DNA from: Leptogorgia sarmentosa
Lineage: Eukaryota
Direction of reading: 5' to 3'
DNA length: 64,000 nucleotides
NCBI GenBank assembly: GCA_964658305.1
Contig: OZ210884.1
Span: 6,014,001-6,078,000, forward strand
Numbering within the stretch: position 1 is the stretch's first letter; each line of letters starts with the position of its first letter. Positions 5,621-56,312 of this stretch are shown in pieces. A program made the translations under genes and the position numbers. The notes under the pieces were generated by a model, which worked only from the letters and a program-made list of their open reading frames with translations, did not search any database and had not been told where the DNA came from.

Positions 5621-5869
5621 TCCGGCTCGAAGGACCAACATGTGGCGTACAAACCACTTAACTGACTCAATTTATGCTGGTTCTCTGTGTAATTAACCTC
5701 TTGATGACTCGATTGCAAAGGATTGTATTATTTAATATCTCAATTTTCAAACATACAGAAAATATGAACCTTTCGCCTTCGTTTTACTTTTCGTACCGTT
5801 TCTTTGTCCAGCGGTCATTATTATTATTATTATTTGAAACTTAATGTTATATTACTTTGTTCGTTCACA
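5621..5869 (-). mobile_element. BEL/Pao 5' LTR (5641-5869) with a tRNA-Tyr-type primer binding site (5621-5637)
   Basis: LTR bounded by TGT...ACA; the minus strand reads TGGTCCTTCGAGCCGGA, complementary to the tRNA-Tyr 3' end; KS coding sequence resumes exactly at 5870. Confidence 0.85.
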
Positions 5870-8800
5870 TAGCAATTGTATGTGCACCAAATATTCTTCT
5901 TACGGGTAGAAAATTTCACCTGGCATGCTGCAGGGCAGGACTGTTGGCCCAAGACGGTCGTTGCAAGAGTTTTGATATAACAGGAGATGGATATGGTCGA
6001 GGCGAAGGTGTTGCTGCTGTATTGATTAAACCAACCCAAACAGCTCTGGATGACCGAGATGATATTTATGCGGAGGTTCTAGCTTGTGGTGTGAATAACG
6101 ATGGACAAACAGCAATTCCAATAACAGCTCCTAGCGAAGTTACACAAGCCGTCTTGTTCGAAAGAGTTCTTCGAGAATCTGGTTTGTCGAAGGATGAAAT
6201 ACAGTACGTTGAAGTGCATGGCACCGGTACAGCTATTGGTGACGTCGTTGAAATGGGATCATTGGCTGCAGTTTACGGGCATAGTAGCAGCCAAATACTT
6301 CGTGTTGGATCCGTGAAATCCAATGTAAACCACACCGAATCAACTGCAGGTTTAGCTGGCTTGATAAAAACGTGTCTTATGATAAAACATGCTCAATATG
6401 TTCCGACAATCAACGTCCATGAAGTTAAGCCTCAGCTTAAAATGACTGAGAGAAGAATGATGGTTCAAACTAGTAATGAGCCGTGGAATTGCAATGCTGG
6501 GACTGGCAGAGCAGCTGCCGTCTCATCCTACGGCTTTGGTGGTTCTAATGCTCACCTTATCGTCCGAGAAGTTACCAGGAAACCTGTTTCAGTATTTCCT
6601 ACTAGACCAATATCTAACAGAGTTATGACGTTGTCCGCTACTTCAAAAGATGCTTTAAAAGCCCTGGCCATGAAAGTATCGCAGTCTTTCAGGACGAAAC
6701 CAGATGATGTCGAACTTCTCAAGGACAACATTTGCTATTCCCTAAAAGAGAGATACACTCAACATCAATATCGTTTGGCTGCCAGTTTTTCTTCTTTTCA
6801 AGACGCAGCAAATGCTTTGGAAAAGTTCACTAATCTTGATGAAGGGTTTGAAGACGTGGTAGCTACTGGTCATGTAACTGAATCCCGTAATAAAGTCGTA
6901 TTTCTGTATGGTGGTCAAGGAGCTCAATGGTTTGGAATGGCAAAGGAATTGTTAGTTCATGAGCCAAAGTTCAAGGAAAGTATTGAAAAGATAGATGACC
7001 TCCTGAAACGGTACAAAGCCTCGTGGTCCTTACTAAATGAGCTTCAAAAGCCGGAAGAAACGTCCCGCCTAAACGAAAATCCCATCGGGCAGACGGCGTT
7101 GTTTGCTGTACATTTCGCCTTAACTGAATTACTGGAATCGTGGGGTGTCACACCATCAGCTGTTGTTGGCCATAGTCTTGGGGAAAGATCGGCTGCTTGG
7201 GCTTCTGGAGCATTGCGTTTACATAAAGCGTTGCAATTGGTTTTATTTCGATCTCAACTTCACGAGAAGTGTTCACCGACAGGTTGTATGGCTGCCATTG
7301 GTCTTTCAAAAGCTGATGCTGAAAAAATGTTGAAGGAACTTCAGGTAGAGAATGAAGTTGGTGTTACGGTGATGAATAGTCCAGGAAACATCGTCTTATC
7401 TGGTTCTAAAGCGTCAATGGAACTCGTTGAAAACCACGTGAAAAGTGCGCGAAGTGATGTTTTCTGGAAAAAACTTTCCACAATACGAGCCTATCATATA
7501 GCCAAGAGATGGAAGAAATCAAACCACCAGTGAATTCCGCGTACGTCAAACATCAAGTAATATACCATTTTACTCAAGAGTAACAGGCCCCTAGTTGTCT
7601 AGTCAGCTTCTCTCCTTGGAGCATTGGTGGCAAAATATCCGACAACCTGTTTTGTTTAAGCATGCCCTAAAAACCATGTTTGCTGATGGCTACCAATTTT
7701 TCATTGAAATCAACGCTGCCCCTCAACTTTCATACCATGTTCGCCAGACGTGGTTCCGCAGTCAAACAGCAAAGTCCTTGCGTACGAATGAGGTTTTTGT
7801 GATTCAAACTATTCCGAAACGCACAGCAAGTCATCAGCACTTGTCTTTTCTTCAAAACTGTGTTGCTCATCTCTATACCCATGGTGTGCCCATATCCTGG
7901 AACAAAGTGCAAGGTTTAGGTTCAAAAACATTCTTTCCACGTCCAACATACCTCTGGCAAGAAACAGAGTTTTGGTACCGTGATGAACGTCCTTTGGAAT
8001 TTGTTACGTTTTTGAATAAACCCAAAGCAGAAGGAAACGATCGGGTTGTCTCCTTCCATCCCCTTCTTGGAAATGCGGTACCAACGGAAACATTTGCTGG
8101 CATACGTGCGTGAGAGTCTGAAATAAATTTACATGATCTGCCATACTTGAACGATCACAAATTCTCTGGTTTTCCTGATCCTGTGATTCCAGCGGCCGTT
8201 TATGTGGAAATGGCATTGGCAATGTCATTAGATCTGTCTCCTAATTCAGCGCAAGATATACACAACATTGCCTTCAAGAATCTGCTGACTCTATCTAGTA
8301 TCGATTCACATATAATTAGAACACGTCTTTTACCAGAAGAATATCCTAGTAAAGAAAATATGTTTCAAATTACTATCGTTCAAGACTTTGGTGACGAAGT
8401 GATTCTTTCTGATGGTGGCATATATGTAGATGCTAGTTATGGCTATGCGAACCAAGGTATGACAAGGTTTTTAGCCCCTAGTTACACGATATCGGATTAC
8501 TATCGGAGCGGCTGTTTCAATGTGGATTTAGCTCTTTTGTGATAATATCCCGAGAGAAGACTGGAAAGTGTCCTAAATTGATGTCACTCCGATGCAAATC
8601 CGCGGCATGGTGTAACTGGGAACTAATAAATCAGATGTTGGACAGTCGTCCAGCGAATTAAAACTCTTGTTTCATCGACAACTTATTTAGTAAAAAACGT
8701 ACCCCCTGATGAAACAGATATGAAAAGCCGAATAAGATAAGAAAAAACGCGAAGAGTTGAGTTTTGCATTTGGTCCCCAATTTGATTTGATAACCGATAC

Positions 8801-9600
8801 ATGGTCAAACGACACAGAAGCACTATCTTGCATAGTCCCGACTGAAGAGATTGTTAGAAGCGTCATTTTATGTTTTCCACCGGACATTGATTGATGCGTG
8901 TTTCCAAACAATTCTTTTGCTCAGTAATCAAGCTGGTAAATTTGTTCCCAAGAAAGTGACTTGTGTCACCATGCTGCAAAATCTCTCGTGTATCGAACAG
9001 TTTTATGTCCACACCAAATTGGTGGAATCTGAGAAAACAATAACCTACAACATCACCCGTTGAACAAAGACCTCAACGGGTAGTACCCGATATTTCTCAA
9101 TTGAGAACATGGGTAATGCCCACGCTGGACTATCGTCTAAGTAGCCTTGCCTGGTAAATTATGAACAGTAATTGCCCGGGTCTATAATCATATGCATTTA
9201 GCCAGGCCAGAGTGGTGAGCAGCGAGCTGGAATTAGCTCAAGTGGTAAGGCACGCGGTGCGTGCGTTGCAGTTCTATAGTTCAAACCCCAGTTCGACACA
9301 TTTTTTCAGCGTTGGTGATGAAAACCTTTTTTTCCTCAATATTTTTCTCACCACAATGGTCAGGGTTAGGATTCTAGGGTTTGGGTTGGGATTAAGGAAA
9401 TTCTTAGTATATAGAAAAATGGTTTATATCTAACACTAATATAACTATATCAAGAGTAATACTGAAACGCCGACCAGCAAGCTTAGGCGATAGTCCAGCG
9501 TGGGCATTACCCGTGTTCTCAATTGAGAAATATTGGGTACTACCCGTTGAGGTCTTTGTTCAACGGCTGACAACATCACCCTGATCGATCGGTATTCGAG
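5870..9600 (+). pseudogene. Copy A of the Patched-PKS gene: KS C-half, AT and DH; disrupted
   Basis: Near-identical to copies B and D; EVHGTGT, GHSLGER, a frameshift near 7499, TGG>TGA at ~8111, a deletion at the next exon's acceptor (~8730), a MITE at 9054, and truncation near 9600. Confidence 0.9.
9054..9569. mobile_element. Non-autonomous TIR element (~85-bp TIRs, acaacat target duplication) with an internal tRNA-like segment
   Basis: ccgttgaacaaagacctcaacgggtagtaccc... is repeated inverted at the right end; acaacat at 9047-9053 and 9570-9576; the empty site is present in copy D (~49042). Confidence 0.88.
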
Positions 9601-10270
9601 ATTGTATTATGATTGGATGACGACCTGATGACAATTGGATTTAAACTTGCCAAGCATGCGCAGTTGATCATTTTTTGCCGATCGCATTGAAAAAAAAGTT
9701 GCCTGAAAATGATACTTTTTAATATTGAGTTACACCTCTGTATGCTATATACTCTGCGATCGGGTGGAACATTATTCGTGTAAACACGCGAGACAACACG
9801 CACGACTCCAGTCGGCTGGCGCCTACCATGATGAGGCATCGTCACATTCGCCTTTCCTATTTAGCGGGAAAACATGCAATTTTACAACAGAGCAGCCATG
9901 CACAACTCACTAAATCATGCAAGCTATCAATATTTTTAACTGCAAACAAGGGTTCTTCACAACAAGCAGTACTGTTCAATTTTATTGAAGGAAGTATTAT
10001 TATATTACTTACTAAAATTCCCTTTGTGTGGCTTTTACCGGTCACAAAATAGGTATTAATCCCAACTAGTTTAGCATAATCATACATATATTTTATATAT
10101 AAAGCTAATACAATTGTCCCCCAAATAATTCTAAAGTAGTGTTATATATAATCACATATTATATCCCAACCTCCCAAGAGTATTAGTGATAAAAGTTAAA
10201 ATAAGAATAAATGTTATGAAAATAAAGTTGGTGAAAAGTTGACAGTTATATATTCGCATGCCGCAACATG

Positions 10271-11960
10271 TCACTGGATAAATGGAATTCCAAAGAGAGC
10301 TTCCAAGGCATCGATCAGTTTCTTAAGTTGTTCCCAATCTTCACATCTGAACGTGTAAAACTTGTCTTTGTTGCTCAACATACACACAAGGAAATCTATG
10401 TAAGATTTGTTCTCTTGACTCTTTCGGATTTCATTGACATGTCTACCAGGTACAACGTTGCTCAGCTCTTGAAGGTAGATTGAAAATAGGATAAAATTAG
10501 ATTAAATTCAAAATTAGCTTTTCGGAAGCCCCTATATATATATATAAGTCTTATATATAGCCCACTCCCTGTGGGATGTTGATGCTATTCTGGGAGATAC
10601 GATTGTGATCAGGTTTTTAAAATATGATGGAATGAAAGAATAATAGAGTCTCGAGGAATTGAGTGCCGTAAGATGCGTATTTTTCGTGACAAATAAACTC
10701 AACCGGCAACATTATATTTGTGAAAAAACAGTAGAACAGTGTGATGCATGAGCATGTTCATTTTCCTGGTAAAGGTAAATTTGTTAATGGTTACGCACCA
10801 AGATTGAGAGCTGGACGATGGTCGTCAAATTTATGAAAATAATTAATACGGTCATTTATCTAATTTTTTACGTTGATTTTCACAATAATAACACAACTTT
10901 GCCAATGAACATTTTTAAGTCAATGAGAATATTATTTCACTCTTAGGTTTATATATCAAAAAAGGAAAAGGCTCAATTTTGAGTTGCATTCATGAATATG
11001 TGCTACTCTCCAAATTCCAACGATTGAAAATTCAATCTAAGTATCGGTAAAAACAATCTGTTTGGGACTGTTTCTACGGACCAAACTTTTTCTATTGAAA
11101 ATCAATTCTAAGGGCGATTGAAAGGAAATCCGTCTAAAAGATTAACTTTTCAATCAAATTTTACTCGATTTTCGATTTAGCGAAAGAAGCTTATTTTTGG
11201 TCTGCTATTGCCGCACACGCGAAGTCTGAGCAACATGATTGGCTTAGAATTCTAAATCTTTGCAAAGGTTGAAATGATTCTCAGCCGTCTTTATCCACTG
11301 ACATACTTTCAATCGAATTGCACACTGAAACAGTATTTTTCAATCTAAGTTCAATCAATTAGACTAATCTATTTTTCAAACTGTTGAAAGATTGAAATTT
11401 TCAATTTTTTGAACTAAGAGAGTAGTGAAATTTGTACGATACTGATACGCTATCAAACAAAAAACTCTGCAGCACTTCCGAAAAGAGATCTTTAGAATCT
11501 CAAAGCTAGTGTTCTAAGAATGCATGAGCAAACATTCTCATTACGAATACAGTATATATGGATTTGTACGATTGATAGTTTGTGGGTGAAAAATTCAAAC
11601 TTGATTAAAGTGAAGAAATACCTTTCAGGAAAATCTTTCGCATCTTGGGGAATCCAAACGACTCATATGTAAAACAAAATACTGTTTCTTCAGAATCTAA
11701 CCACAAAATACCTTTCAACATTGCAGTGGAACCTAAATACAGAATTCAGAGCTAAATTCAAAGGTCTGAATATTTACTCAAACATCTGTTTTCAAACACC
11801 GTTTCATTATTTTATTTTGCAGTTTTGTAATCTATTTGTTTTATGTATAATATTATAATTGCATTTTTTTTCTCTCTTACTTGGACTTGACAACATTCTG
11901 ACGTGTAAGCCTTGCTTCAGGGACTCTACCAAGCGTTCTTGTGGCCTGGATCTCACAGTC
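10271..11960 (-). other. C-terminal PH-like domain of copy B (end of coding exon 10 plus exons 11-12)
   Basis: Spliced sequence LKQGLHVRMLSSPSSTAMLKGILWLDSEETVFCFTYESFGFPKMRKIFLKELSNVVPGRH...FLVCMLSNKDKFYTFRCEDWEQLKKLIDALEALF fits the beta-sandwich plus terminal helix pattern of PLC-type PH domains; conserved in copy F. Confidence 0.6.
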
Positions 11961-14900
11961 TGGAGGCTAAATGTAGAAAATGCTGATTGATACTTCATTG
12001 CTGCTGTTGTCATTATTATAGATCCACAAATCTTGCCACGAGTCTCGTCACGCATCTGCAAATGCCTTCCCGGGACGTAGAAAATATCCATTGTTTTCAC
12101 CAATGTTTTCCACATATGTATTCCCCACAGTGGTGATAAGTTAGTCTCATCGCAGCATAGAAATGTTATTGTGCCTTCGTAACATACCTGTTCAAAGATA
12201 CAATTACAAATAAACATGGCGAGCAAGTCAATCAAAAAATCCTTAGACCGGGAAAATCAGTTTGGAGAAGTATTTAGCCCTGAAGAGAGCCACATTACGA
12301 CATTTTTCAACCATATTTTCTAGTTTCACTACTTTTGCAAGGTTCTTTTAGGATTTCCGACTTGTCTCGATGAAAAATGAGTCTATAACGTTCATTGTAA
12401 ATTCTTACTAGCATGCAGTGTTTCAATTTTGGTGAACCACGTAAGTTAGTTTAAAAAGGTAATCGTCTTGGGAATAACTTGCTTTTCACTTGGTTAAGAT
12501 TAGGATTTGATATTTACATACATACTGGACAGCCAGAACCCTATGTTACCCCTAACCATAACCCACAACGTCCTGAAGGAGATAGGTTAATATCATGCTA
12601 AATGCAAATGAGTTGAAATCATGCTAAAATTGCAGGATTAAACACATCTATAAAAGCTAAAAACTTAGGGGACGACTTCCAGACCCCCAAACAGTTCACT
12701 TGTATGTACTTAATTCAGTAAGTTAGATGGGTTCAAGGCTGACTAACACCTGGTATAAAACGAGAAAGTATTTTACGTTCTCTATTTTATCATATAAAGA
12801 TAATAAAGAGCGAAAACCTGCTTGGTGTACGCATGTACTATAAACTTTCGTCCCCTTATTTTAGATTTCAAAATGCAAAAGTAAAGTAATTTAACATACC
12901 GTAGAAGGTTGCCATTCAGTATATGCCTTAGCAGCGGATCTAAGCTCATACAAAACACTGTCCACACCTTCTTGCAAAGAAAAGTCTATGTTCGTCTGCG
13001 CAGCTTGATTTTCCAAAGCACTTATAACTTTTTCTCTGTCTCCGAACTTATCGTACATATTATCCAACTCATTTCGTGTCGTACCGAGTGCAACAAAAGC
13101 CATTCTCCCGATATATCGCCTTGTCTGCAAAAAAAATCAGAACGACAAATTGTTTATAATTAGATAATTCTAATGATTCCGGAGGAGGGAAGGCTTGCAT
13201 ACATTAAAATCAGTATGCCCAAAAATTGGTTGCAATATATATGTGATTTGATCCGGGCTTTATTCATGATTCGAATAGTTATTTACCACATGGTTCTCCA
13301 GGGTCTGCATGTTCAGCTGTATGCATTTTGTGATGTATTCACTGCAGTTAGCCAAAGATTTAGCAAACCACGCGTACGCATCTACCATGGACACCATTGC
13401 GACTGCTTCATTTTTTCGCGTTAGTTCACTTGCCATTTCATACGCTACGAATCCACCGAAAGAATACCCCGCTACAATACGAAGTAATCAAAATTATGTC
13501 GGGAGGACTGAGAAATTATTGGAACGAATACGAAACATTTTTTCAAAGATGATCTCGAGATCAATACACATGTCTTCACCATTGATGGAAAATTCATTAT
13601 TAATGTATTTTCGGTATGCTACTGTCTACTATATATATGAAAGTTTTTTGTTTTGGTGTTCAACCCATTAGTTGTGGAAATTTTGTTGCAGATGTTTTGT
13701 TGCTAAAGACTGGTTGCATGCAAACTTTACTATAACATATGAAGAAAATATTTTGGCCTTACCAAGATAATATGGACCACGTGGCTGGATTTTCTGTATC
13801 AGATTTACATATCTTTGAGCGAGTGTCAAAACTGTACCATAATCACTTGTCACCAAAAAGGTATCATCCACCCCAATGCCATACAATGCAACCTTAGTCT
13901 GAAGCAAAATGCGACACAAACGCCTTTACATTTTGGAAATCACAAATGACACGAGGGCTAAGTTGTCTGTTCTTAGGCGAGAAGGCCTCACGTGAATGCG
14001 TCCGAATTATTTTAACGAATATATAATTACCTGTTGTTGAAAACCAAGTGCATATGTTCCCAATACCAGCGCTGACTTCTGGCTGCCATGAACCATAAAC
14101 ACTTTTACAACTGCGTCATCTGGAGCATAGAGGGGGATGACTTTTTCCTTGATCGATTCAATGCCTTGAAGCTCCAAACCATTGTCGTTTTTGGCATTTT
14201 CCACTTCTTTATTGGCATCAGAATTATTTTTGAATTGGTTATCATCTAGCGCAAAGGTTTCCCCTTCACTTTCTAACGTAGAACTTTCCCCTTGCTTTTC
14301 TGACAAGAGGCTACTCTCTTGCATATTATTTTCATTTTCATCGTCGGTATCATCTGTTGCAGTTGTGTTTTCAATTTGTTCAATGATGTCATTAATGATA
14401 GCCAAACCATTCGTCTTTGGTTGAATAAAGTAGTATGTCTATAAATGATGTTAACGTTTACGTGAGAACAATGTACCAATGGCTGTAATGCAATCCCAGT
14501 ACATTGTTTGTAATGCACTGCCATATGAATACCACATAAAAAAGGTATGTTAACCGTTAGCGCGGTGTGTTAGTAGGTACACAGGCGAGTGATTAGTTGT
14601 TTCAGATAACTATTCCGAACAAATTTAAAATACAATAAAAATAATTGTAATATTTGTACTTCAACAGTATCGTGAATTTAATGAATAGATGCTTTTGTCA
14701 TTTGGATCTGCTGCACATATAACTTTAAGAATTCTTTTTTGTTCTTGAGACACTTTTAAAGCAGGATTGAGGAAAGGGACCATATTTAAACATGCTTACT
14801 TCAAATGTAGCACCAATGTTATTCTGTATTTGAAGTTTCATATTCGTTGCGGCAATTGAATCAATTCCATATTTGTGCAATCCAACGTTTAAGTCGAGCT

Positions 14901-17900
14901 CAGCGGCATCAGCTCCTGACCACGAAGACAGCAAACGTTTGACAAACTCCTCAACATAATTCACTCTGAATTCGAGTGGCTGTAGGGCTAGCTCCTTCAA
15001 AGTCATGACTTTGTTATTCTCACCAGTGGACAACATCGTTTCTTCCCGGATAGGCTGCAGTCTTGGAGAAGTATGAGTTTGAAGATAAACTTGCCAATTT
15101 ATTGGAGCTAAGGAAACCTGAGGTTCGTTCGAATGCTCGAGGAGAACGCGAGTCAAAAATTCAATTCCTAAACAAAAAATGAACTAATAATTAATAATTG
15201 AAATAAAAGATGATCTCATATGCAGAAAAGGAAAATTCGGTAAAACAGAGATTCATTCCGTGAAAGACGTCATTAACCTCGTAATATATATATTCTCATT
15301 CTTGACTCGTAGTACAACGTAATGATAAAGCATGGAATAATAAATTACTTTAGCATATTTTTGGATATATTTTTGGTCCGGAGTAATAAAAAGTTAAAAA
15401 GCGACTATTTGTTTATTTGCCTCACATGCCTGTTGTAAAGTGTAGAGAATAGAACCCTCCTGATTCAAGTATTGACGTGATATCTGTGTTTCTTTCAAGC
15501 ACACCAGCACCACTAATTGGTCCCCAGTTGACAGAAAGTCCGGGCAGGCCAAGTTTGTGTAGACGATATTCACAAAGTTGGTCCATGAATGAGTTGGCTG
15601 CAGAGTAGGCGACTTGACCAGCATTGCCAAGAACACCAGATATTGAAGAAAACATAATGAAGAAATCCAAATCCATTGATAGACTGAGTTGATGTAGGAT
15701 AACACTACCTAAAAGGAAAATTTAAAGCAATGAATTTATGAGATAATCTGCAACAATTGTAATGTTAAAAAACTCATTATCTATTGTCCCAAGAGTGTAT
15801 GTAAAAAAGGCAGTGGGGCGTCAGTCCGTTACAGATTTATGAAACTCATGTTGAAATTTGTTCTAAGTCGCTATACGAAAACCACCAAACGTTTAGAATC
15901 ATTTTTTTCCTTTATATAATCATGGGGCTAATCATTTGTAGCCAGTCAGTGGCGTAGGAAGATCGATAATAGGGGGGGGGGGGGCTTATATTCATATATT
16001 GGTGTTCACAGACCATAAAAACAATGGATTTCAACAGAAACCAATGATGCAGCACACGAATATATGAATATCAGCTCCCCCCCTCATTATTTCAATATTC
16101 CTATACGCCACTGAATACATAGAAGTTATACAGAAAGGTTCTGCGTTTGGAATTGAAAATTCACCTTTTACTTTTGTCTGGACAACTTTTTTACATGTTT
16201 CTAAGTCGGCGTTGATGAGCAACTGATCTGCCAGAACCATAGCGGTGAAAACAATTCCAGCCACAGCAGGCAAGCTCTCAAGTTCATCCTTTATTACATT
16301 CATGTCTTTCCACGATGTAACATCTGCTTGTCTCAGTAGAATCTGGGATCCAGTCTCTTGCTCTAAGCGCTGAACCTCGACTTTCTTTTCCTCGCTGGGC
16401 GGTGATCGGGCTGTACATACCACTGTTTTGGCACCATTTTCAACCATCCATTTGGCAACTTCAAAACCAAAACCACGAACACCTCCAATGACAAGATACG
16501 TGCGATCATCTTTCAAACCGTTTGCATCGAGTGGTAAACTGTAGAAAGCCACTTTTTCGGGAGTATTGTCTGGTTTGAATGAAACTGTGGACAAACCGAT
16601 TTCTGCTTTTTCACTTTCTGATGGTTTGTTGTTGTATCCATTGTTCATGACGTCATATATACTCGATACTCTCAGAGGAATGTTCAGCAGTCTTTCCAGA
16701 AGACCTTTTGATTTCAAATGAAAATAACACGAACTGAACAATTTTTCGAAGTTCTCGGAGCCTTCTGTGATGTTTGGCAAGTTGGTCACAACACACCGGA
16801 TGTTTTTGCCCTGAGCAAACGGGTTAAAGTGGAGATTTTTATCTTCATGGAGAATAATTACGCTGCCGTCTGGTTTAAGATGATTAACTATTTGACGGTA
16901 GACATATTCACTGCAGTCGCTCAAGAGGCAAACAGCATCGAATTGCGCTAAATTGGCAGCATTTACTTCTGCTCTTGCTATTTCCTCCACAGTTACGACA
17001 AGTAGGTCATACATTTTCCTCAGTCGCTCTTTACTGGCCCGATCGTTAGTGAGACAGACGATTTTTACATCCAAAGACAATGCGACACATGCAAAAAGGG
17101 ATGATATTTCTTCTCTTTCATGATAGATGAGGACATTCTTTTCTGGCGCATCTTCAACGAGATTCGTGAGAATATAATAGGACATTTGCAAAGGAAAGCC
17201 AAGAACAACTGCCTGTTGAGGATTGGTGTTAGCTTCTAAATTTGTTATGGAAGATTTTTCTTCATCAACGTAACTTCCCAAGTCATCCGTTTTACAAACG
17301 CCGAGTACGAAACGATTTTCTGGTTCATTCTGACTGTCCAAAAACTTTCCTACAAAGGTGATGCGATCATTCTTTTTGAGGTCACACCAGGGTTTCTGGA
17401 GAACTGGGCAAGCGAAGTGGACGTCAATTTTCGTTCTTCCGTTTATTTGTTTTTTGGATGTTTTCTGCAGGAAAAGCTGGTCTGACATGCTTGTCACCTT
17501 AAAAGGCCTTTGTGCTCCTTCTTTTGTCAGAGGAGACTCTTCTTTCGTAATTATTTGTTTTTCACCCGAAGTCAACTTGTTGAATCGATTTACATATCGT
17601 AAGCCATCTCTATAGACAATTTCTTCTTCCATTGTCCCTTTTCGTACGTCTTCTTCCAAATATCGAAAATCATCGTCGCTGGGATTGTAAGGTAAATCCA
17701 CCACAGAAGCGTTAATTGCTGTGATTTCCTCCGAGAAAGTTCTCCTGAATCCAAGCACAGAAGCAGACCATGGAAAAGCATCTAAATTATCCGTGTTGGG
17801 ATAGCGGTTGGGTTGAGGAATGGTAACAACTCCTGAGGTGACAAAGATTAGTTGGATATTTTCTGCCTCTCTTTTCGCAATTTCTTGCGAAATTAAAAGA

Positions 17901-20900
17901 CAACTTTCAAATGCAAGGGCATGAGTTGCATCAAAGTTTTGGGCTCCAATATCAAAGGTGCTGCCATCTACTGGCCAGAAATTCATCACCAGTAACTTTT
18001 CTTCGTTTTCAATTCTTGCCAGGGCAACATCGAGTGCTTCAGAAAATGTTTCACGTGTGTTTCTTGACGAATCTTCTCTATCAACAAAAATCACATTCTC
18101 ATGAGCAGCAATACACTGTGAGAAACGTTCAGCATACTTGCTTTGATCCCTGAGAATCAGCCAAAATATATCATCCTGACCCGATGTTGCAATTTCAGAC
18201 GTTAATTGTTGCCAACCAAAAGAAAACGATGTGTTCTCAAAGAACGTTCTGGTCTTCTCTGATGAGATATCCTCCATTCGGAGTTCTTTTATGATGACTA
18301 CTGGTCTAGCATAACGGTCCATCAGGGTAATATTGTAGCTTGATGTTTTCTGTGATTTTATCATCTTTGTGTGAGCGTAAAACTTTTCCGTGGCTATAGG
18401 CTTTTGCAGGAGAGTGACTTGTGCAATCTTCTGTGGCACAGATGAACCAGCCGAATCGTCAAGCAAGATAATTGTTTGGAAACATGCATCGATCAACGAG
18501 GGATGAATAAAATAAGCTGATGCTTCTTTGGTCATCTCTTCAGTTGGGCATATCTGAGCGAGAGCTTCTGTGTCATTGGACCAACCTTCGGTTATCAAAT
18601 TAAACTGGGGACCGAAATCGAAAATAGATTCTTCGCGTTTCTCTCCTACATGCTTTTCTGACCATTTACTCATTGCAGATTTTAAAATTTCAAAATGCTC
18701 TTCATTTTCTTCTTGGATTGCTTCTACACAAAAATTCAAACAAACGTAAAATCGAGTTTGTCTTTCGTTTTGATGCAATGACATATTAATAATAAATAAT
18801 CTGCAGAAACACCAGCTCTAAAATTTTAACCTTATGTTTGATTTGATTTTTATATATGGGGGTTTTTAACTATCTTTTTCATTCTTGTTATTACATAATA
18901 TTATTATATGCCAAGTATTCGTTTTGGCGAATGGCGCGATCTGATTGGCTGGTATTGCCCACGGGCAATACGCAATTTTCATTTCCCTGTCAGGAAAACA
19001 ATCACAAAATTTAAGATTTGACGAAATTTTATTTGTTAAATTAGACTGAAAAGTGTTAAAATGAGAGACCAGGAGCATTCTGGAAGCGAGTTTTATTAGG
19101 CTATCCAGAGGCTGAAAATAAAGGATACGTAACTGTTTTTTGTCAGTTATCGTTTTTATCGAAGAACATTATGAGAATTTGGTATATTCGTGCATGTTGT
19201 CTGAGCTCAATTCGAAACGCACATACAGAAAATCTTAGTCTTAATAATTACCCCACCACAAATTGTGAATGAGCTACAGCTTTTCTTGCATTTTTGATTG
19301 TTCGATATTGGTTAGCCAAAGAGTAATTATTTGCGATGATCACTTTTTGGAAATAGTGGAAATATAATAATTTCGAACAGCTAATTTCTATTCTTACAAG
19401 GTGGGTCAAAACTTGTCATTGACCCTTACGTATGTTGTGTTTTAATAACACGGTCTAAAACAACAAATGATAATAGAAACTAGCATGAGACCTGTCTTGA
19501 AACAATTTGTGTTGCCATACCTTGCTTTCCATAGCGATGACTATTATTCAAGTTTACACAGCCTTCGGAGAGGATCACTTCCTGTCCATTGTCTTGAACA
19601 ATGGTAATTTGAAACATTTTCTCTTCACCAGGGTATTCTGCCGGCAAAAGACGTGTTCTAATTTTGTGGGACTCGTTACTAGATAGAGTTAACACATTGG
19701 TAAAGGCGATATTGTGCGCATTTGGAGCAGTGTTAGGAAATAAATCCAATAACATTGCCAATATTATCTCCACGTATACAGCTGCAGGAACCACAGGATC
19801 AGGAATTGTGGTAATTTTGTGATCATGTATGTATAAATGATCGTTCAAATTGATTTCACCCTCCCAAGCACGTATACCAGAGGACGTTTCGGTCGGAACA
19901 GTTTTTCCAAGAAGAGGATGAAAAGGGACAATACGCTCATTTTCTTCTAACCCAGATTCATTCAAAAACGTGACAAATTGAGACGGCTGCTCATCACGGT
20001 ACCAAAACTCTGTTTCTTGCCATGGGTATGTTGGACGTGGGAAGAATGTTTTTGTTCCCAAACTTTGCACTTTGTTCCAGGATATGGGCACACCATGGGC
20101 ATAGAGATGAGCAACACAGTTTTGAAGAAAAGACAAGTGCTGATGACTTGCTGTGCGTTTCGGAATAGTTTGAATCACAAAAACCTCATTCGTACGCAAG
20201 GACTTTGCTGTTTGACTGCGGAACCACGTCTGGCGAACATGGTATGAAAGTTGAGGGGCAGCGTTGATTTCAATGAAAAAATGGTAGCCATCAGCAAACA
20301 TGGTTTTTAAGGCATTCTCAAACAGAACAGGTTGTCGGATATTTTGCCACCAATGGTCCAAGGAGAGAAGCTGACCAGACAACTGGGTGCCTGTTACTGT
20401 TGAGTAAAATGGTATATTACTTGGTGTTTGCCGTACGCGGAATTCACTGGTGGTTTTGTCGAACGATTCTTTGATTTCTTCCATCTCTTGGCTATGATAG
20501 GCTCGTATTGTGGAAAGTTTTTTCCAGAAAACATCACTTCGCGCACTTTTCACGTGGTTTTCAACGAGTTCCATTGACGCTTTAGAACCAGATAAGACGA
20601 TGTTTCCTGGACTATTCATCACTGCAATATCAACTTCATTCTCTACCTGAAGTTCTTTCAACATTTTTTCAGCATCTGCTTTTGAAAGACCAATGGCAGC
20701 CATACAACCTGTCGGTGAACACTTCTCGTGAAGTTGCGATCGAAATAAAACCAATTGCAACGCTTTATGTAAACGCAATGCTCCAGAAGCCCAAGCAGCC
20801 GATATTTCTCCAAGACTATGGCCAACAACAGCTGATGGTGTGACACCCCACGATTCCAGTAATTCAGTTAAGGCGAAATGTACAGCAAACAACGCCGTCT

Positions 20901-23900
20901 GCCCGATAGGATTTTCGTTTAGGCGGGACGTTTCTTCCGGCTTTTGAAGCTCATTTAGTAAGGACCACGAAGCTTTGTACCGTTTCAGGAGGTCATCAAT
21001 CTTTTCAATACTTTCCTTGAACTTTGGCTCATGAACTAACAATTCCTTTGCCATTCCAAACCATTGAGCTCCTTGACCACCATACAAAAAGACGACTTTA
21101 TTACGGGATGCAGTTACGTGACCAGTAGTTACTGAGTCTTCAAACCCTTCATCCTGACTACTAAAGTTTTCCAAAGCATTTGCTGCCTCTCCAAAAGAAG
21201 AAAAACTGAAAGCTAAACGATATTGATGTTGAGTGTATCTCTCATTCAGGGAATAGCAAATGTTGTCCTTGAGAAGTTCGTCATCATCTGGTTTCGTCCT
21301 GAAAGACTGCGATACTTTCATGGCCAGGGCTTTTAAAGCATCTTTTGAAGTAGCGGACAATGTCATAACTCTGTTAGATATTGGTCTAGTAGGAAATACT
21401 GAAACAGGTTTCCTGGTAACTTCTCGGACGATAAGGTGAGCATTAGAACCACCAAAGCCGTAGGATGAGACGGCAGCTGCTCTGCCAGTCCCAGCATTGC
21501 AATTCCACGGCTCATTACTAGTTTGAACCATCATTCTTCTCTCAGTCATTTTAAGCTGAGGCTTAACTTCATGGACGTTGATTGTCGGAACATATTGAGC
21601 ATGTTTTATCATAAGACACGTTTTTATCAAGCCAGCTAAACCTGCAGTTGATTCGGTGTGGTTTACATTGGATTTCACGGATCCAACACGAAGTATTCGG
21701 CTGCTACTATGCCCGTAAACTGCAGCCAATGATCCCATTTCAACGACGTCACCAATAGCTGTACCGGTGCCATGCGCTTCAACGTACTGTATTTCATCCT
21801 TCGACAAACCAGATTCTCGAAGAACTCTTTCGAACAAGACGGCTTGTGTAACTTCGCTAGGAGCTGTTATTGGAATTGCTGTTTGTCCATCGTTATTCAC
21901 ACCACAAGCTAAAACCTCCGCATAAATATCATCTCGGTCATCCAGAGCTGTTTGGGTTGGTTTAATCAATACAGCAGCAACACCTTCGCCTCGACCATAT
22001 CCATCCCCTGTTATATCAAAACTCTTGCAACGACCATCTTGGGCCAACAGTCCTGCCCTACAAGAGGCCATATGAAATGCTTCACCTGTGAGCAGAATAT
22101 TTGGTGCGCATACAATTGCCACGTCACATTCACCGGTTTGTAGGTGTCCAAAGGCAACGTCGAAAGCCACCAAGGATGACGAACATGCTGTATCCAATGT
22201 TAAACTGGGACCAGTTAGATTAAATGAGAAAGAAATCCGGTTGGCAACAACAGACATGGCACATCCAGTTGGAGAAAATTGATCGATTGTTCGAATGTTA
22301 GACGGATGCAAAACAAGTGAACCATATTCTAAGTTCATTAATCCAACATAAACGCCCGTTCGACAAGTTTGCAAATCTTCAAGGCGCATTCCTGCATCTT
22401 CGATTGCTTCGTAAACAACTTGAAGAAGTAACCTTTGTTGTGGATCCATTGAGCGTGATTCGGCGGGGGTTATTCCAAAAAACTGATTATCAAATCCAAG
22501 AATATTTTCTAGAAATGCTCCAGTGTAGACATAGTGTTTTCCAGGCGTTTTCGTTCCTGAGTTGAAAGAATCCAGAAATTTATTTGAGTCTGGTCTATTT
22601 TTGGGATAAGACCCAATACCACATCGTCCTTCCACCAGCATATTCCAAAATTCATCTTTGGAGTTCGTCCCTCCTGGAAAGCGACAACCAATGCCAACTA
22701 TAGCAGCAGGAATGGGAGTTTTAGATTTCACGACATCCTTTGATAAATTTGCGTGGGCATTATCGTAGAATTTTCGCTTTCTTACACGTTCAAACCACTT
22801 GATTATGAATGAATCGAAGTTCACTTTTCGAAAGTCGAACAGTTTTCCCAGAAGTGTCAGGTACACGGGTAGTATCACTAAGCCATGCAGCAGACCAAGA
22901 ACCACAATGCCAACAAACATCTTGAAGAATGTTACAAACACAGTAGAGGAAGCAAATCCTGTAGGCATCATTCCAAGGAAAGTACTCAGACCCCCGAGAA
23001 AAACACTGCCCCCAATTTTGCCAAGTGAGTCAATAACACGATTCTCTGCAGAGGTCTCCTTCGACGAAACAAAATGATAGGCCACATGTGCGTTGTAATC
23101 CACGGAAAATCCTAGAGCCATAACAAGATTTATCATAGAAATTGAGTTAAGAGAGACATTCCATATGTACATTAGTCCAAGAAGTTCAAGAATAAGAGCT
23201 AAAAACCCCCACAAAAGACAAATTATTATCATAAAATGATTCAGGAACAGGGATGATATCAGAAGAATTGAGATTCCAGCAACGACCAAATTCCTCACAG
23301 TTTCATTAAGGACATTAGCAAATTGTTCAAAGTAGATGAAAGGTAGGGTAATGGCAAATGCATTGACATCCGTGGCACGTGAGAGATCCTGTCTTATGCT
23401 CAGCATCATATCTCTTTGAAAACTTGAAGCAGGGTTACTCTTGGAGAACAACAACATTCTTGAAGCTGTCAAATGCGTTTTGTTTTTTGAAAATTTCAAA
23501 TCTTCGGCAAACCTTATATATTGTGGCAAAGAAATAAAATGTGGCAAGGTATTGTAGAAAGTAGTGGTTTCATTTATGTCAATATTCTGTTTGTTTGCCC
23601 ATGACCTGTATTCTGACATCCAAGAAATACTTTCGGAAAGAAAATGCGCATTACGTTCAGCGATATTTTGAACTTCTGAATACATTTTTTGAATGTCTTG
23701 ACTGGATTGGCTCGCCTGTCCGGGGAAGATAACATCAACTGGAATAGTGAGATGAAATTTTTCTTCAAAAACGTTCAGGTATTCCCGGTAGTGTGATTTT
23801 TCAGTTGTTAGTAACTGTCTGCTAAAACTTTCATCAATATTGAGAGCGCCATAAATACCACCAGACAATAGCAGCAAAGAACCCAGACAGACGATAATTT

Positions 23901-26900
23901 TTCCTTTTGGAGATGTTATTATCTTGCCCCATGATCTCATCACGTTGTCAAATCCATGCGTTTTGAAACCAATACAGCAGCTCCTAGGCGGTCCGACCAT
24001 TACACAAGGTGCCATATCTCGACGACGCGCGTTAATTCGTTTGATATCAAACCACATGCATCCAACAAAAAATGTCATCAGCATAAGAAATGCTGTCCAA
24101 ATCGTCAGCGCTGCGTATGTGCAAAAATAACGAATCGCGGGAAAGATAGAACGACAGCTAACAGCAAATGCTACCAGGTCAGTGAGGGTTGTCATGGTAA
24201 TAGTTGGACCACTTCTAGCCATTGTACCGCTAAGCATATACCTAGCTGGAAGATTTTGACGGACTAATTCGTTCAGTTCATGTAGAATAATAAACACGTC
24301 ATCAATGCCAATACTGACGACTAAAAATGGCAAAACCCCAACCATACTGACGAAAGGAACATCGAAAAACAGCAAGAAGCCAAGCGCCGAGGTGACACCC
24401 AAATAGATAGATAACAAAGCAGTAAATCCTAAAAGTTGATGTCCATAGCGAGAATCTGCACATCTACCGTTTATTATTCCACTAAAAATTCCCATGATTG
24501 TGAAAGTCAGCGAAAAGAACTTGATATCAGAACCAGTACTTTCTGCCACTGAATCATCCAGGCTTCGTTCTGCTGCATAAAAAATGTTTACACAAGTTGT
24601 GTTTTGTGCAAAAGATGAAACAGCGTTCAAATATTCCATCTCCCAGTCCAAAACATGCTTTCTGTTTTCGTCCTCTCTTCTGTATTCTCTCATATAGTAA
24701 ACAATTCTCAAGGCATCTGCAGAATCAAGTTTACCATTCGAAGCAGCTTTTCCAAATATTGCATTGTAGTTATCTTGAAGTCGTCTTCCATTCGTCATTA
24801 GAAAAACATCGTTGTCAAGCAATTGCTTGATGTGTTGTTTAATATTGTTCAAGTTATTTATATGGTAACCGAAAATTTCTAACAAATTTACGGAGGCACA
24901 AGGGATAGTTGGATGTGGTTTATAACAATATTTCTCGTAAAACTTTATTTTTGTGATTATGTTGTGTAAATCAATCATTTCGGACAAACATTCCTCGGAA
25001 AGAACAGACTTGTTTTGTTTTGGTAAAAAAATAATCTCCTCTTGTCGCACTTCAAGTTCAAATCCCAAATCTCGTGCCTTGCGTATATCCTGCGATGCTT
25101 CGCTGTTTTCTGGCAGGAACAAGTATTTTACATTTTCTTCGGGCTCTAACTTCACAAATCCACAGGTAAAGACAATGGCAACAAACAGGCATGTGAATAT
25201 GATATGAAATGGCCGCCGCGAAATAAAGAGGGCGGTTTTTTCAAAAAGCTTTTCAAGGAAGACAATAAAGAGTTTTTGACACCATACCCAGTGCCGAAGA
25301 CACCCATTTTCAAACCAAGATTGTGGTTCCTGCCGGTATAAGTATTCGACTTCATTGTAGACATTTGGTTTGTTGCTAACAAGTAAAAAATAAAAAAAAG
25401 ATGAGGAAAGCTAGCTTGGAAGAAAGCCCGTATCCATTCATGATCATCGGTGTAAAAATCCCTGGATAAACCAAGGAGACATTGTTGGGCAACCGAACAA
25501 AATTTGCTGCCGGGATGACCTAAAAGTATTTGCACTGGAGGTTTCAGGACAGGGGGCATATTTAAAAACAAACATCTCGAAAAAATGGTGTGGCGTCTTG
25601 TAAGCAATATTTTAGATCATCCGTACACACGAATGGTTTCCACAGCATGTTTCCCAGATTGCCTGTTAGGAACGTTAAAACGTCCTTTGTGAATCCCTTA
25701 AATAAATTATGTTCGTAGACTATTTTGATTTTGTTCAAATGCTATTCCTACAATACATTTCTCGCCCAGACTTGTTGCGATTCAACCTTGGCTGAAACAT
25801 GTCACTAACTTTACATATTCCACAGTACGTTTCGTTATACAATTACGTTTTATATGCATCATACGTTTCACAATTACGTTTTATTTGGTAATTTGGTTAT
25901 TTGGTTTACCAAATCTATAAAGTGACATATATTATTTGTTTAAAGCTGTACCTAGGGATCTTGAACAAAAGCCTCGTGTTTTCTAGAAGGTTCCTATTAT
26001 TATAATAATAATAATAATGGGAACTTTATTAATAAATTTTTTTAGTATACATATAAAATTGTAAATCTCACTTATGTCAGGTAATTTACAATCCGCTACT
26101 TGAATCGATTATTGAACTGCGATATTGTATGGTGGACGTACAACAACATAGCAAGTGAGAAAACAGTGTGATAGCGTAGAAATTATTTAAAAATTATTCC
26201 TACAGAAATTCCCCCTTTGTCTATTTATTTCTTGGTGCGGCAGGTATTCTCTTCTTGGACATAACAACGCAATAGTAGTTCCGGGAAGTTGGAGCCTACG
26301 AGACGCAACCATGGTTGGCGGCGACTGAAAATTTTTTTAGAATTTGTGGTTTCTAGATCATCGGAAATTGCCTTTTTGGGGTCTTTTATTCCTCTTTTCT
26401 TTGGTTTTGCCCTCATCATTTGCTTGAGGGGTGTATTAGATATTTACGGTTAAACATTTGCAAAATTAGTCTACTTTCCTGGAGACACATTCTTGTGGCG
26501 ATTTTCCTTAATTTTAATCTTGGTTCCGTGTTAATTAACCTTAAATTGTTACGTGGTCTCAGTTGGTCGCTACGTCCCTGGTTAAACCAGGCTGATCGGC
26601 ACGAAATTGACCAAGAACTGCAATGTGCAGCTAACGATGAAATTTTAACTGTTTATGTATGAAGAAAGATACTCAGTATATTCATTTCAGTAATCTTATA
26701 AGACTTTTTATATGCTATAAATACGATGATCGTATGCAGTTTTAAAGATTTCGAGAATGTATTTCTGCGCCAAAAGCTAGAATTGTAACATTTGTGTTGA
26801 TTTTAAGATTATCTTGTGGAATTCACTTTTATTTACATTATTGTCTAGACAAGGGTTGTTTTTTTGCAACAGGATCCGCGCATATCACTACATCTGGTAC

Positions 26901-53003: not shown

Positions 53004-56000
53004 TTACCTAACAATCCCGGTGACGATGATTTTCTATCCCTGGCAGAAGACGTACGAAAAGGGACAATGGAAGAAGAAATTGTCTATAGAGATGGCTCAA
53101 CTCAAACTCAACTTCTTGAATCGATTGACATATCGTAATATTATGTCAATCGATTCAAAAAGTTGAGTTTGGGTGAGAGAAAAATTACGAAAGATGAATC
53201 TCCTGTAACGAATGATGGTAAACAAAAGCCTTTCAAGGTGACAAGCATGTCAGGGAGATGGTTTCTTCAAAAAACGACTGAAGAGCGAATGTATGGAAAA
53301 ACAAAAATTGACATCCATTTCGCTTGTCCAGTCCTTCAAAAGCCGTGGTGTGACTTGAAAACGAATGATCGCGTAGCATTTGCAGGAAGTTTATGTGATG
53401 GTCAGATCAAAGCACAAAATGGCTTCGTACTCGGCGTTTGTAAAATTGATTACTTGGGCAGTTGCGTTGACGCAGAAAAATGCTGTTTAACAAAGATAGA
53501 AGACAACATCAATGCTCCGCAGGCGGTATCTCTAGGTTTCCCACTGGTAATGTCGTATTATATTCTCACCAATCTCGTTAACGATGCACCAGGAAAGAAT
53601 ATCCTCATCTATCACGAGAACGAGGAGATATGCTGCATTTTTGCTTGCGTTGCGCTGTGCTTTGATGTTAAAATCGTGATCCTCGCCAAGGATCGAAAAA
53701 GTAAGGAACGAATAACAAATACATACGATTTAGCGGTTGTAACTGCAGATGAAATAGCAAGAGCAGAATTAAATGCTGCTAGCGTGGTGGAATTCGACGC
53801 TGTTTGCCTCCTAAGTAAAAACAGTGCATATCTCTACCGTCAAATAATGAGTCATCTTAAACATGGCGCCAACGTAATCACTCTATGTGGAGATGAAAAT
53901 GTCAAGTTTATCCCGTTTGTTCATGGCAAAAATGTCCAATGTTTTATGACCAATTTGCAAAATATCACCGAGAGCTCTAAAAACTTTGAAAAATTGTTGG
54001 GCTGCTGTTATACGCTTTTGAGATCAAAAAGCCTTCTGGAAAAACTTCTAAATATTCCTCAGAGAGTATCCAAGATATACGACGTCATGAGCAATGAATA
54101 CAAAGACACAGTTTCAATAAGAGAAAAAGAAATCGGTTTGTCCATAGTTTCATTCAAACCTGAAAATACTCCCGAAAAAGTGGCTTTCTACAGTTTACCA
54201 CTGGATGCAAACGGTTTGAAAGATGATCGCACGTATCTTGTCATTGGGGGAGTTCGTGGTCTTGGTTTTGAAGTTGCAAAATGGATGGTTGAAAATGGTG
54301 CCAAAACAGTCGTATGTACAGCCCGATCACCGCCCAGCAAGGAAAAGGAAGCCGAGATTCCGCGCTTAGAGCAAGCGACTGGATCCCAGATTCTACTGAG
54401 ACAAGCAGATGTTACATCTTGGAAAGACATGAATGTAATAAAGGATGAACTTGAGAGCTTGCCTGCTGTGGCTGGAATTGTTTTCACCGCTATGGTTCTG
54501 GCAGATCAGTTGCTCATCAACGCCGACTTAGAAACATGTAAAAAAGTTGTCGAGACAAAAGTAAAAGGTGAATTTTCCAACATATTTAATTATTTATAGC
54601 TCCTTTACATGATGAATTTAAATAAACACGGAAAGTCTCTAAATGAATTCCTCACGGTATAATACTACATGCAGTATGTATGTCAACCTTCTACGGTATG
54701 TTAAATTACTTCAAGTATCTTGCTCATCCATATTCATCTTCAAAGCAAATGCCTAATACTCTAAAAAAGTTAAAAATTGCTCGATATTCCGAAGAGTATA
54801 TATTATGAAGACTTTTATACAGGTCAATTTGTTATTATTTTTGCACAGGTATGTTATGAGGGCACAATAACATACATATGCTGTGATGAAACCAATTCCT
54901 TTCCACTGTGGAGCTTACAAATGTGGAAATCATTGGTTGAAAGAATGGACTTTTACTACGTTCCGGGAAAACATTTGCAGACGCGTGACGAAACTCGTGG
55001 CAAGATTAGTGGATCTATAATGATGACAACAGCAGCAATGAAGTATCAATCAGCATTTTCCACATTTAACTTCCAGACTGTGAGATCCAGGTCACAAGAA
55101 CGCTTGGTAGAGTCCCTAAAGCAAGGCTTACACATCAGGATGTTGTCAAGTCCAAGTAAGAGAAAATTAAGTAAGAGGCGAAGAAGAAAATATTGGAAAA
55201 TTTTCCGTATTTACTCGTAATTACCGTTTGTGCGCCGCCTTCCAATAAGCGCCTAATGTGAGAGCGAAGAACTTAAAAGACGCCGCCTACGAATGAGCAC
55301 CACACTCGTTATCTGCACCATGCAGTGTTTATTCGAAAACACTGTCATAAATATTTAAAAAAACTGATCATACAAAATAACTATATGACATTTTAATCCT
55401 AAATGAACGTGGAAAATTTATTTTCTTGCACTACAATCCTTTTCAGATAAAATAAGTGCATTTCAAAGCCCTGGTAACGGTTCTTTTTATTATTTATATG
55501 TAAAGTTTTGCCGCTGTCCCTGAATAAGCGCCGCATCTTAGACACTGAAAATTTAAAGAGCGCCGCCGCGCTCGAACGAGCAAATGCGGTATATAGTTTT
55601 GATACCACAAAAAATTACCTCGTCTTCATCGAATGCCTATCCACTCATATTCTCCATCTTCTACATGTAGGTTCCAACACAACGATGAAAGGCATTCTGT
55701 GGTTGGATTCCGAAGAAACCGTGTTTTATTTCAAATATGAATCACTTGGATGTCCCAAGATGTGAAAGATTTTTCTCAAAGGTATTTCTTCGTTCCCGTC
55801 AAGTTATATACCTAATATAAATTTTAAGTTAGTTTATACACAAACACAATCTCAAGCACATTTAAATGACTGCCTTAAACACTAACATTTGAAGCACAAG
55901 GATATGCGCACGCTCCGTTTTGTTGACTTGCAAGGAAGAAATATAAACGCGTCTTCGTGTTTTCTTTATTAGTTAACATGATTTTGGCAAGCGGAACTTG

Positions 56001-56312
56001 CGCTGGCGATTGCTGTTAAAATAAATAGTGAAAAACTTTTTTTTGAATTTCTTATAGATATTAAAAAAAACCTATACATAGATTTGTATTGAATAATACC
56101 AATTTTACCTTTAAGATCTGACCAACGTTGTACCTGGTAGACATGTTGATAAAATCAGGAAATATCATGAAGGCAAATCTTACACTGATTTCCTCGTGTG
56201 TATGTTGAGCAACAAAGGCAAGCTTTACACGTTCAGATGTGAAGATTGGGAACAACTTAAGAAACTGATCGATGCCTTGGAAGCTCTCTTTGGAATTCCA
56301 TTTATCCAGTGA
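53003..56312 (+). pseudogene. Copy F: 3' continuation of copy D (ER0-KR N-part to 54568; exons 54849-55155, 55671-55781, 56116-56312)
   Basis: The last three exons have the same lengths as in copy B (307, 111, 197 nt); exons for the KR C-terminus, ACP and TE nucleophile are missing; CGA>TGA at 55763. Confidence 0.9.

What the first reader, a model, noticed from the sequence alone, without database searches (positions are those of the whole stretch)
10271..12187. PH-like domain after the thioesterase, visible only after splicing
Three short exons (the last two not in the ORF track) add ~110 aa after the TE His motif. The pattern resembles a PLC-type PH fold: LKQG..., LWLD, KIFLKELSNVVPGR, FLVC, YTFRC, and a final helix EQLKKLIDALEAL. 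Exon sizes, the AAG acceptor and the final TGA are conserved in copy F. A phosphoinositide-binding tail could tether the release domain to the membrane near the transporter (inference). The canonical Trp in the terminal helix is not in its usual position, so the call is tentative.
Basis: partly seen in the sequence, partly recalled or inferred. Interest (0 to 1): 0.7.

Follow-up and report, generated by a model that had tools for sequence, protein, structure and literature searches.

The report
Transporter-fused polyketide synthase with PH tail
The last three exons of a soft-coral-type gene that joins a membrane transporter to a lipid-building enzyme add a domain predicted to have the pleckstrin-homology fold, which likely docks the enzyme's product-release end on a membrane although it lacks the usual phosphoinositide-binding motif.

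Summary
Three minus-strand exons (12187-11881, 11732-11622, 10467-10271) join in frame at the end of a gene of at least 3,542 aa: Patched/SSD-KS-AT-DH-KR-ACP-TE, closest to octocoral proteins. The splice is supported by a related contig that lacks exactly these two introns and by Xenia and Dendronephthya models carrying all three exons. The ~125-aa tail is under purifying selection (dN/dS 0.21-0.24). The homolog's tail (77% identical) folds at pLDDT 89 and matches PLC/ELMO/ISP-type PH domains (Foldseek E 1e-5; Z 12.3 to PLC-delta PH); Pfam misses it. The likelier role is weak, non-canonical docking of the thioesterase end on a bilayer or a partner protein. A jellyfish homolog keeps the tail; chromerid and gregarine homologs show only a hint of it. 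The Patched-PKS fusion is in print; I found no mention of the PH tail in ten searches. Copy F is a pseudogene. New variant of a known kind; function untested.

The parts
19521..25375 (-). Large exon: Patched/SSD (RND-type) transporter, KS, AT, N-half of DH; begins at a splice acceptor, start codon lies further upstream and was not located
   Evidence: Pfam Sterol-sensing 7.8e-31, Patched 1.5e-26, KS 5.1e-75, AT 1.4e-57; gene model
16165..18723 (-). Exon: DH C-half, long region without an ER or MT hit, KR N-half
   Evidence: Pfam PS-DH 3e-19, KR 2.1e-24; contig 23 of run X4 joins 15707 to 16164
15430..15708 (-). Exon: KR C-half; followed by a GC-AG intron
   Evidence: Pfam KR 1.9e-22; joint 15166-15430 in run X5
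14800..15167 (-). Exon: ACP (GIDS serine)
   Evidence: Pfam PP-binding 8.5e-07; contig 27 of X5 joins 14438 to 14800
12900..14438 (-). Four exons (14438-14031, 13898-13763, 13471-13287, 13124-12900): acidic linker and thioesterase core with the GYSFG serine at 13463-13461 and an Asp candidate
   Evidence: gene model with one open frame; homologs P0002, P0005, P0091 hit Pfam Thioesterase
11881..12187 (-). Exon 9: end of thioesterase (His at 12064-12062, last helix), linker, then N-terminal helix and strand 1 of the PH fold (from about 11947)
11622..11732 (-). Exon 10 (111 nt, symmetric): predicted strands 2-4 of the PH fold
   Evidence: joint 11717-11879 in runs X4 and X5
10271..10467 (-). Exon 11: predicted strand 5, helical insert, strands 6-7, C-terminal helix, TGA
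   Evidence: contig 24 of X5 lies on 10061-10467 and leaves the genome exactly at the acceptor
54849..56312 (+). Copy F of the three exons; pseudogene (in-frame TGA at 55763-55765; ACP and TE N-half exons missing)

Best explanation
The three exons complete a Patched/SSD-KS-AT-DH-KR-ACP-thioesterase gene and add a conserved tail predicted to be a PLC/ELMO-type PH domain, which likely docks the thioesterase end weakly on an anionic membrane surface through a non-canonical site so that the lipid-like product would be released next to the fused transporter. Shown: exon structure, splice points, intact catalytic motifs, purifying selection, absence of the KXn(K/R)XR motif. Predicted: the PH fold (about 0.95). 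Inferred: cytosolic position of the PKS and tail (from recalled RND topology), an iterative fatty-acyl or polyene product (no ER hit), hand-over to the transporter, and membrane docking by the tail. Because the N-terminus already anchors the chain, the tail would position or gate the release domain rather than recruit the enzyme.
For: Splicing: L001, P0016 and P0091, joined contigs in X4 and X5. Selection: dN/dS 0.21-0.24, the same as the TE end in the A-L001 pair (0.235 against 0.235). Fold: pLDDT 89.4, pTM 0.81; 29 Foldseek matches at E<=0.001, all 29 PH-containing entries; VIA Z 12.3, rmsd 3.3, 117 aligned to 1mai among 48,161 chains; Atlas TM 0.75-0.81 in 10 of 10 rows, 6 named PH_12. Membrane docking: all 5 tails are net basic (+3, +2, +10, +7, +18), basic residues gather in the beta3-beta4 and beta6-beta7 hairpins (alignment, strands); third-ranked VIA match is the GAC C-terminal PH domain (Z 11.9), reported to bind phosphatidic acid, and APH binds it without the canonical motif (PMC6084407). 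Proteins with a membrane anchor plus a PH domain are a recognised class (PMC9692390 abstract).
Against: No binding was measured. The window's own tail is only +3 and the basic residues are not well conserved in position. A shared fold shows no function; ELMO1 and PLC-beta2 PH domains in the hit list are solved with protein partners. The model is of L001's tail (76.6% identical), not of the window's spliced product. Sequence scores are below Pfam's cut-off (18.3 and 14.8 bits against 25.1). No listed run is on record as RNA, and the exon 10-11 joint of this copy was not displayed. One Dendronephthya model (P0005) skips exon 10. Product and transport activity are unknown.
Confidence: 0.45

Rival explanations
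1. The PH-fold tail is a protein-binding module: a small GTPase, G-beta-gamma or trafficking adaptor would bind it and switch on or localise synthesis and export.
For: Closest folds include ELMO1 (solved with DOCK2/5), PLC-beta2 (with Rac1), PLC-beta3 (with G-beta-gamma) and Exo84 (with RalA); the N-terminal helix is present, and in ELMO1 a helical extension binds DOCK180 (title seen in a reference list); canonical lipid motif absent.
Against: No partner identified; no test run; the fold match to lipid-binding PLC-delta PH is as good (Z within 1).
Confidence: 0.27
2. The tail is structural: it packs on the thioesterase or another domain, or helps the megasynthase dimerise, with no outside ligand.
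For: Only about ten residues separate the last TE helix from the tail; selection is as strong as on the TE end; in PLC-gamma and -beta the PH domain is part of the catalytic core (recalled).
Against: The tail folds confidently on its own; TE domains of solved FAS, PKS and NRPS relatives work without such a tail (recalled).
Confidence: 0.17
3. A canonical high-affinity phosphoinositide sensor like PLC-delta1 PH.
For: Best VIA match is PLC-delta PH with IP3 (Z 12.3).
Against: [quoted passage not shown]
Confidence: 0.08
4. Artefact: the exons are not spliced on, or the tail is a decaying remnant.
For: 3 of 5 named octocoral models lack part of the tail (P0002, P0004, P0005); copy F has a stop in exon 10.
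Against: Precise intron loss in L001, two complete models, joined contigs, dN/dS near 0.2, and a tail at the same place in the jellyfish protein.
Confidence: 0.03

Closest known systems
Cnidarian Patched-domain PKS (Palythoa preprint 10.64898/2026.04.08.717340; Acropora 'other-KS-AT-DH-KR-ACP-TE' in PMC4604110 Table 2)
   Same: Patched domain plus KS, AT, DH, KR, TE in one chain; duplication with pseudogenised copies
   Different: No PH or pleckstrin term in the preprint's main text (0 hits; Fig. S15 not seen); the Acropora table ends at TE; no function known
Chromera velia 'AcrB-coupled' PKS/FAS Cvel_8275 and Cvel_22311 (PMC7464705)
   Same: SSD/AcrB-like N-terminus fused to one PKS module; Cvel_8275 is P0014 here and has a TE and a further tail; its KS groups with the cnidarian KS against 45 other, mostly bacterial-labelled KS (support 1.0)
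   Different: Tail longer, with low-complexity inserts; homology to the cnidarian PH tail not established (6 of 60 shuffles reach its score); 'pleckstrin' 0 hits in that paper
PLC-delta1/PLC-gamma/ELMO1/ISP1-type PH domains (PDB 1mai, 9qb7, 2vsz, 4chm; Pfam PH_12)
   Same: N-terminal helix, seven strands, helical insert between strands 5 and 6, C-terminal helix; Z 11.6-12.3
   Different: 10-16% identity; canonical basic motif absent; helix Trp replaced by Leu/Phe; sits at the C-terminus of a biosynthetic enzyme
Mycobacterial PKS-MmpL coupled synthesis and export (title seen in the reference list of PMC4604110; otherwise recalled)
   Same: RND transporter coupled to a type I PKS for a lipid product
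   Different: Separate proteins there, fused here; no PH domain there (recalled)

Membership tests
PH-domain superfamily (fold) | Seven-stranded beta sandwich capped by a C-terminal helix | tested here: met
   AF2 model of the L001 tail: seven long strands plus H115-129, pLDDT 89.4; Foldseek and VIA matches cover residues about 8-132
PH-domain superfamily (fold) | Pfam PH or PH_12 score above the curated cut-off | tested here: not met
   PH 18.3 bits (P0016), 14.8 bits (L001 tail), cut-off 25.1; no hit for the window's single exons
PH-domain superfamily (fold) | Conserved Trp in the C-terminal helix | tested here: not met
   Leu in window, L001, P0091, P0013 and Phe in P0016 at the position (alignment; register from recalled PLC-delta sequence)
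PLC/ELMO/ISP-type PH subgroup | N-terminal helix and helical insert between strands 5 and 6; best matches in this subgroup | tested here: met
   H12-23 and H82-88; ranks 1-8 of VIA are PLC, GAC, ELMO1, ISP1
Canonical phosphoinositide-binding PH domains | KXn(K/R)XR motif in the beta1-beta2 loop | tested here: not met
   0 of 5 tails in register; 1 of 5 out-of-register regex hit; motif definition from PMC4358224
Canonical phosphoinositide-binding PH domains | Measured specific phosphoinositide binding | not testable with these tools
   needs liposome or NMR assay
Cnidarian Patched-PKS | Patched/SSD domain fused N-terminal to KS-AT-DH-KR-(ACP)-TE | tested here: met
   61% identity over 2,668 columns to Dendronephthya P0091
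Cnidarian Patched-PKS | KS falls in the published cnidarian PKS clade | tested here: inconclusive
   groups with octocoral and jellyfish KS (support 0.93), but the published reference set, animal FAS and other eukaryote PKS were not in the tree
Active type I PKS/FAS | Catalytic motifs KS Cys/His/His, AT Ser, KR Tyr, ACP Ser, TE Ser/Asp/His | tested here: met
   motifs located in the gene model; motif definitions recalled; activity itself not tested

The most novel reading that the evidence does not exclude
An old eukaryotic make-and-export megaenzyme, shared by cnidarians and by chromerids and gregarines, runs RND transporter-PKS-thioesterase-PH in one chain, and its PH tail is a signalling input (anionic lipid, second membrane or small GTPase) that gates release of the product into the transporter: a polyketide synthase under direct membrane-signal control.
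Probability: 0.22. Interest if true: 0.8.

Novelty: new variant of a known kind. Interest (0 to 1): 0.52.

Why it matters
Cnidarian Patched-PKS genes are noted in print but have no known product or mechanism; coral PKS has been proposed to act in calcification (PMC4604110). A PH domain after the thioesterase is a eukaryotic signalling fold on a bacterial-style assembly line; I found no such architecture in the ten literature searches. It gives a small, soluble 125-aa handle for testing where the enzyme sits and what controls it, and it corrects gene models: 3 of 5 named octocoral models seen here lack part of the domain, and Pfam misses it in all. If the alveolate tails prove homologous, the four-part architecture is very old or was transferred whole.

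Tried and rejected
Pfam on the window's single exons: no PH hit. AF2 on Xenia P0016 without alignment: pLDDT 35.3; Foldseek with that model gave no match at E<=0.001; discarded as a failed model. Atlas search with the half domain of P0002: only unnamed clusters. Sequence searches of PDB: one chance MarR hit for P0016, none for the L001 tail, thioesterase hits only for profile A6. Alignments A2 and A3 were misaligned by a look-alike motif in TE and strand 5 and were not used for folding. First metagenome scan with the last-exon profile: 184 pattern matches, 0 confirmed. TE plus PH complex prediction: no answer, score 0.00, alignment not used; no evidence either way. Sequencing runs: no RNA holder listed. 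Alveolate tails: HMM search not significant (P0014 no hit, P0015 E 33); hhalign 0 of 60 shuffles reach the P0015 score, 6 of 60 the P0014 score, 1 of 100 the two-row profile score, over only 26-56 columns; I do not claim a PH fold for them. Papers on ISP1 and ELMO1 PH were not held. Earlier findings of this scan: none by sequence, by place or with all words.

Full report
Setting. The window holds one intact and several broken copies of a large gene. The intact copy (minus strand, 25375-10271) has at least 11 exons that give one open frame of 3,542 codons; nine introns are GT-AG and one GC-AG. Pfam finds sterol-sensing, Patched, NPC1 luminal and AcrB-type matches, then KS, AT, DH, KR and ACP; close homologs add the thioesterase. 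The start codon lies upstream of the first large exon and was not located. The nearest named relatives are octocoral: 61% identity over 2,668 columns to Dendronephthya P0091, with Paramuricea and Xenia models next. Catalytic motifs of KS, AT, KR, ACP and TE are present (motif definitions recalled). No ER or MT family was hit.

The observation. The three last exons are as described: 307, 111 and 197 nt, the last behind an AAG acceptor and ending in TGA. Copy F repeats all three sizes, the acceptor and the stop, but carries an in-frame TGA in the middle exon and lacks the ACP and TE N-half exons, so it is a pseudogene that still records past selection.

Is the splice real? Four lines say yes. 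(1) A scan of metagenome contigs gave 1 confirmed locus of 301 pattern matches; in L001 the upstream intron is kept but the last two introns are missing, and the three exons form one ORF of the same 615 nt whose junction bases agree with the predicted splice. (2) Xenia P0016 and Dendronephthya P0091 carry all three exons. Of 5 named octocoral models seen, 2 are complete, 1 stops after exon 10 (P0002), 1 reads through after exon 9 (P0004) and 1 skips exon 10 (P0005). (3) I laid 4 of 6 listed runs. None is on record as RNA, but contigs of X4 and X5 join exons across several introns, including 11717-11879 with 13 letters between that equal copy F's exon-10 start, so that contig is of an F-like paralog. 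Contig 24 of X5 lies on 10061-10467 and leaves the genome exactly at the last acceptor; where its other 179 letters lie was not displayed, so the exon 10-11 joint of this very copy remains unseen in reads. Intron-less gene copies such as L001 could also give joined contigs. (4) dN/dS over the tail is 0.235 (A-L001), 0.224 (A-F) and 0.207 (F-L001).

The fold. Sequence methods only hint: Pfam PH E 0.0034 for P0016, 0.042 for the L001 tail, 0.02 for P0006, all below the cut-off. Structure is clear. The Atlas's own model of P0016 (pLDDT 0.63) matches 10 of 10 listed rows at TM 0.75-0.81; 6 are named PH_12 (ELMO, PLC-eta, PH-RCC1-FYVE proteins) and 4 fall under the naming bar. AF2 on L001:888-1292 (76.6% identical to the window's tail) with a 13-row alignment gives pLDDT 89.4 and pTM 0.81, with an N-terminal helix, seven strands, a helix between strands 5 and 6 and a C-terminal helix. 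Foldseek finds 29 matches at E<=0.001, all PH-containing: ISP1 (1.1e-5), ELMO1, PLC-gamma1, PLC-delta PH 1mai (5.4e-5). VIA-align over 48,161 chains ranks 1mai (Z 12.3, rmsd 3.3, 117 aligned), PLC-gamma1 (12.1), GAC (11.9), ELMO1 (11.7) and ISP1 (11.6), which are tied. A single-sequence fold of P0016 failed (pLDDT 35). Exon 9 gives the first helix and strand 1, exon 10 strands 2-4, exon 11 the rest, so skipping exon 10 would break the domain (inference).

What it binds. The canonical site is a KXn(K/R)XR motif in the beta1-beta2 loop (PMC4358224, passages). It is absent in register from 5 of 5 tails; one regex hit in Xenia starts in the N-terminal helix. Net charges are +3 (window), +2, +10, +7 and +18. 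The motif predicts binding poorly: most of 67 human PH domains had it whether or not they bound (PMC8282632, passages), and APH binds phosphatidic acid without it, as the GAC C-terminal PH is also reported to bind it (PMC6084407, passages); PMC4704004 (passages) makes the same point. So a PLC-delta-like sensor is unlikely, and weak non-canonical docking or a protein partner is open. Since an RND-type N-terminus anchors the chain, with a cytosolic C-terminus (recalled; a hydropathy scan found 8 hydrophobic segments in residues 1-840), the tail cannot be needed for recruitment; it would place the thioesterase at the same bilayer beside the transporter, or reach a second membrane, as for anchored membrane readers (PMC9692390, abstract and outline). 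I give membrane docking 0.45, protein partner 0.27, structural 0.17, canonical phosphoinositide sensor 0.08, artefact 0.03.

Range. A search among proteins of 3,459-5,000 aa gave 3 hits among 2,964 candidates: jellyfish Sanderia (3,629 aa), Chromera Cvel_8275 and the gregarine Selenidium, all with transporter-type N-terminus, one PKS module, TE and a further tail. An HMM of four octocoral tails hits the last 114 aa of the jellyfish protein (i-E 0.0045 among 146 proteins; 0 of 60 shuffles reach its hhalign score). The alveolate tails resemble it only over the first two strands (0 of 60, 6 of 60 and 1 of 100 shuffles), which is a lead, not a result. A FastTree of 55 KS domains (10 fusion proteins and the 45 best of 86 other, mostly bacterial-labelled hits) puts all 10 fusions in one clade (support 1.0); no animal FAS or other eukaryote PKS was included, so this shows no transfer or age.

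What is known. The fusion is in print: most cnidarian PKS carry a patched domain (Palythoa preprint, passages), two Chromera enzymes are AcrB/SSD-coupled (PMC7464705, passages), and Acropora PKS are listed as 'other-KS-AT-DH-KR-TE' (PMC4604110, passages). PMC10764717 has no 'patched' or 'pleckstrin' (passages). The PH tail did not appear in ten searches (seven on PKS architecture, three on PH-domain background), nor in the main text of the preprint or the chromerid paper. The preprint's Fig. S15 of domain architectures could not be seen and may list a PH-like hit; subscription papers are not searched. Two unchecked earlier notes of this scan describe PKS and Patched genes side by side in fish, which would fit a make-and-export pair.

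Verdict. Observation confirmed; PH fold of the PLC/ELMO/ISP type well supported; canonical phosphoinositide binding unlikely; role inferred. New variant of a known kind, interest 0.52.

Noticed in passing
L001:681-1295: A homolog has lost precisely the last two introns while keeping the one before: 3'-biased intron loss of the kind expected from recombination with a cDNA (inference).
   Followed up: partly
window 5845-9057 (+), 32966-33877 (-), 44230-49773 (+), 49781-53002 (-), 52950-56312 (+): At least five broken or partial copies of the same Patched-PKS gene, some nested and inverted, around one intact copy.
   Followed up: partly
window 15168-15429: GC-AG intron; a joint at 15166-15430 in run X5 fits it.
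   Followed up: yes
window about 10905-11567 and 15946-16114: High-copy repeats inside introns (contig depth 10,000-170,000 in X1 and X2); the second is self-inverted and recurs at 40047-40180; MITE-like.
   Followed up: no
window 9053-9141 and 9482-9570: 89-bp inverted repeat pair, 95.5% alike, directly after the end of a broken PKS copy; likely a small transposon.
   Followed up: no
window 1-3570 (+) and 4248-5612 (-): LTR-retrotransposon pol frame (RT, RNase H, integrase) and a DUF1759 gag-like frame.
   Followed up: no
window 12073-12062 and exon 11 start: The short motif around the thioesterase His recurs by coincidence in predicted strand 5 of the PH tail and misleads aligners.
   Followed up: yes
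P0010, P0018-P0026: A cluster of ten 77-80-aa ORFs about 30% identical to the last exon points to a more divergent paralog family with the same exon.
   Followed up: partly
window 19521-25375: The transporter part keeps acidic residues in both SSD-type helices (GIDD and FSVD words), which in RND proteins serve ion coupling (recalled).
   Followed up: no
window 61408-63294 (+): 628-aa acidic open frame with no Pfam match.
   Followed up: no
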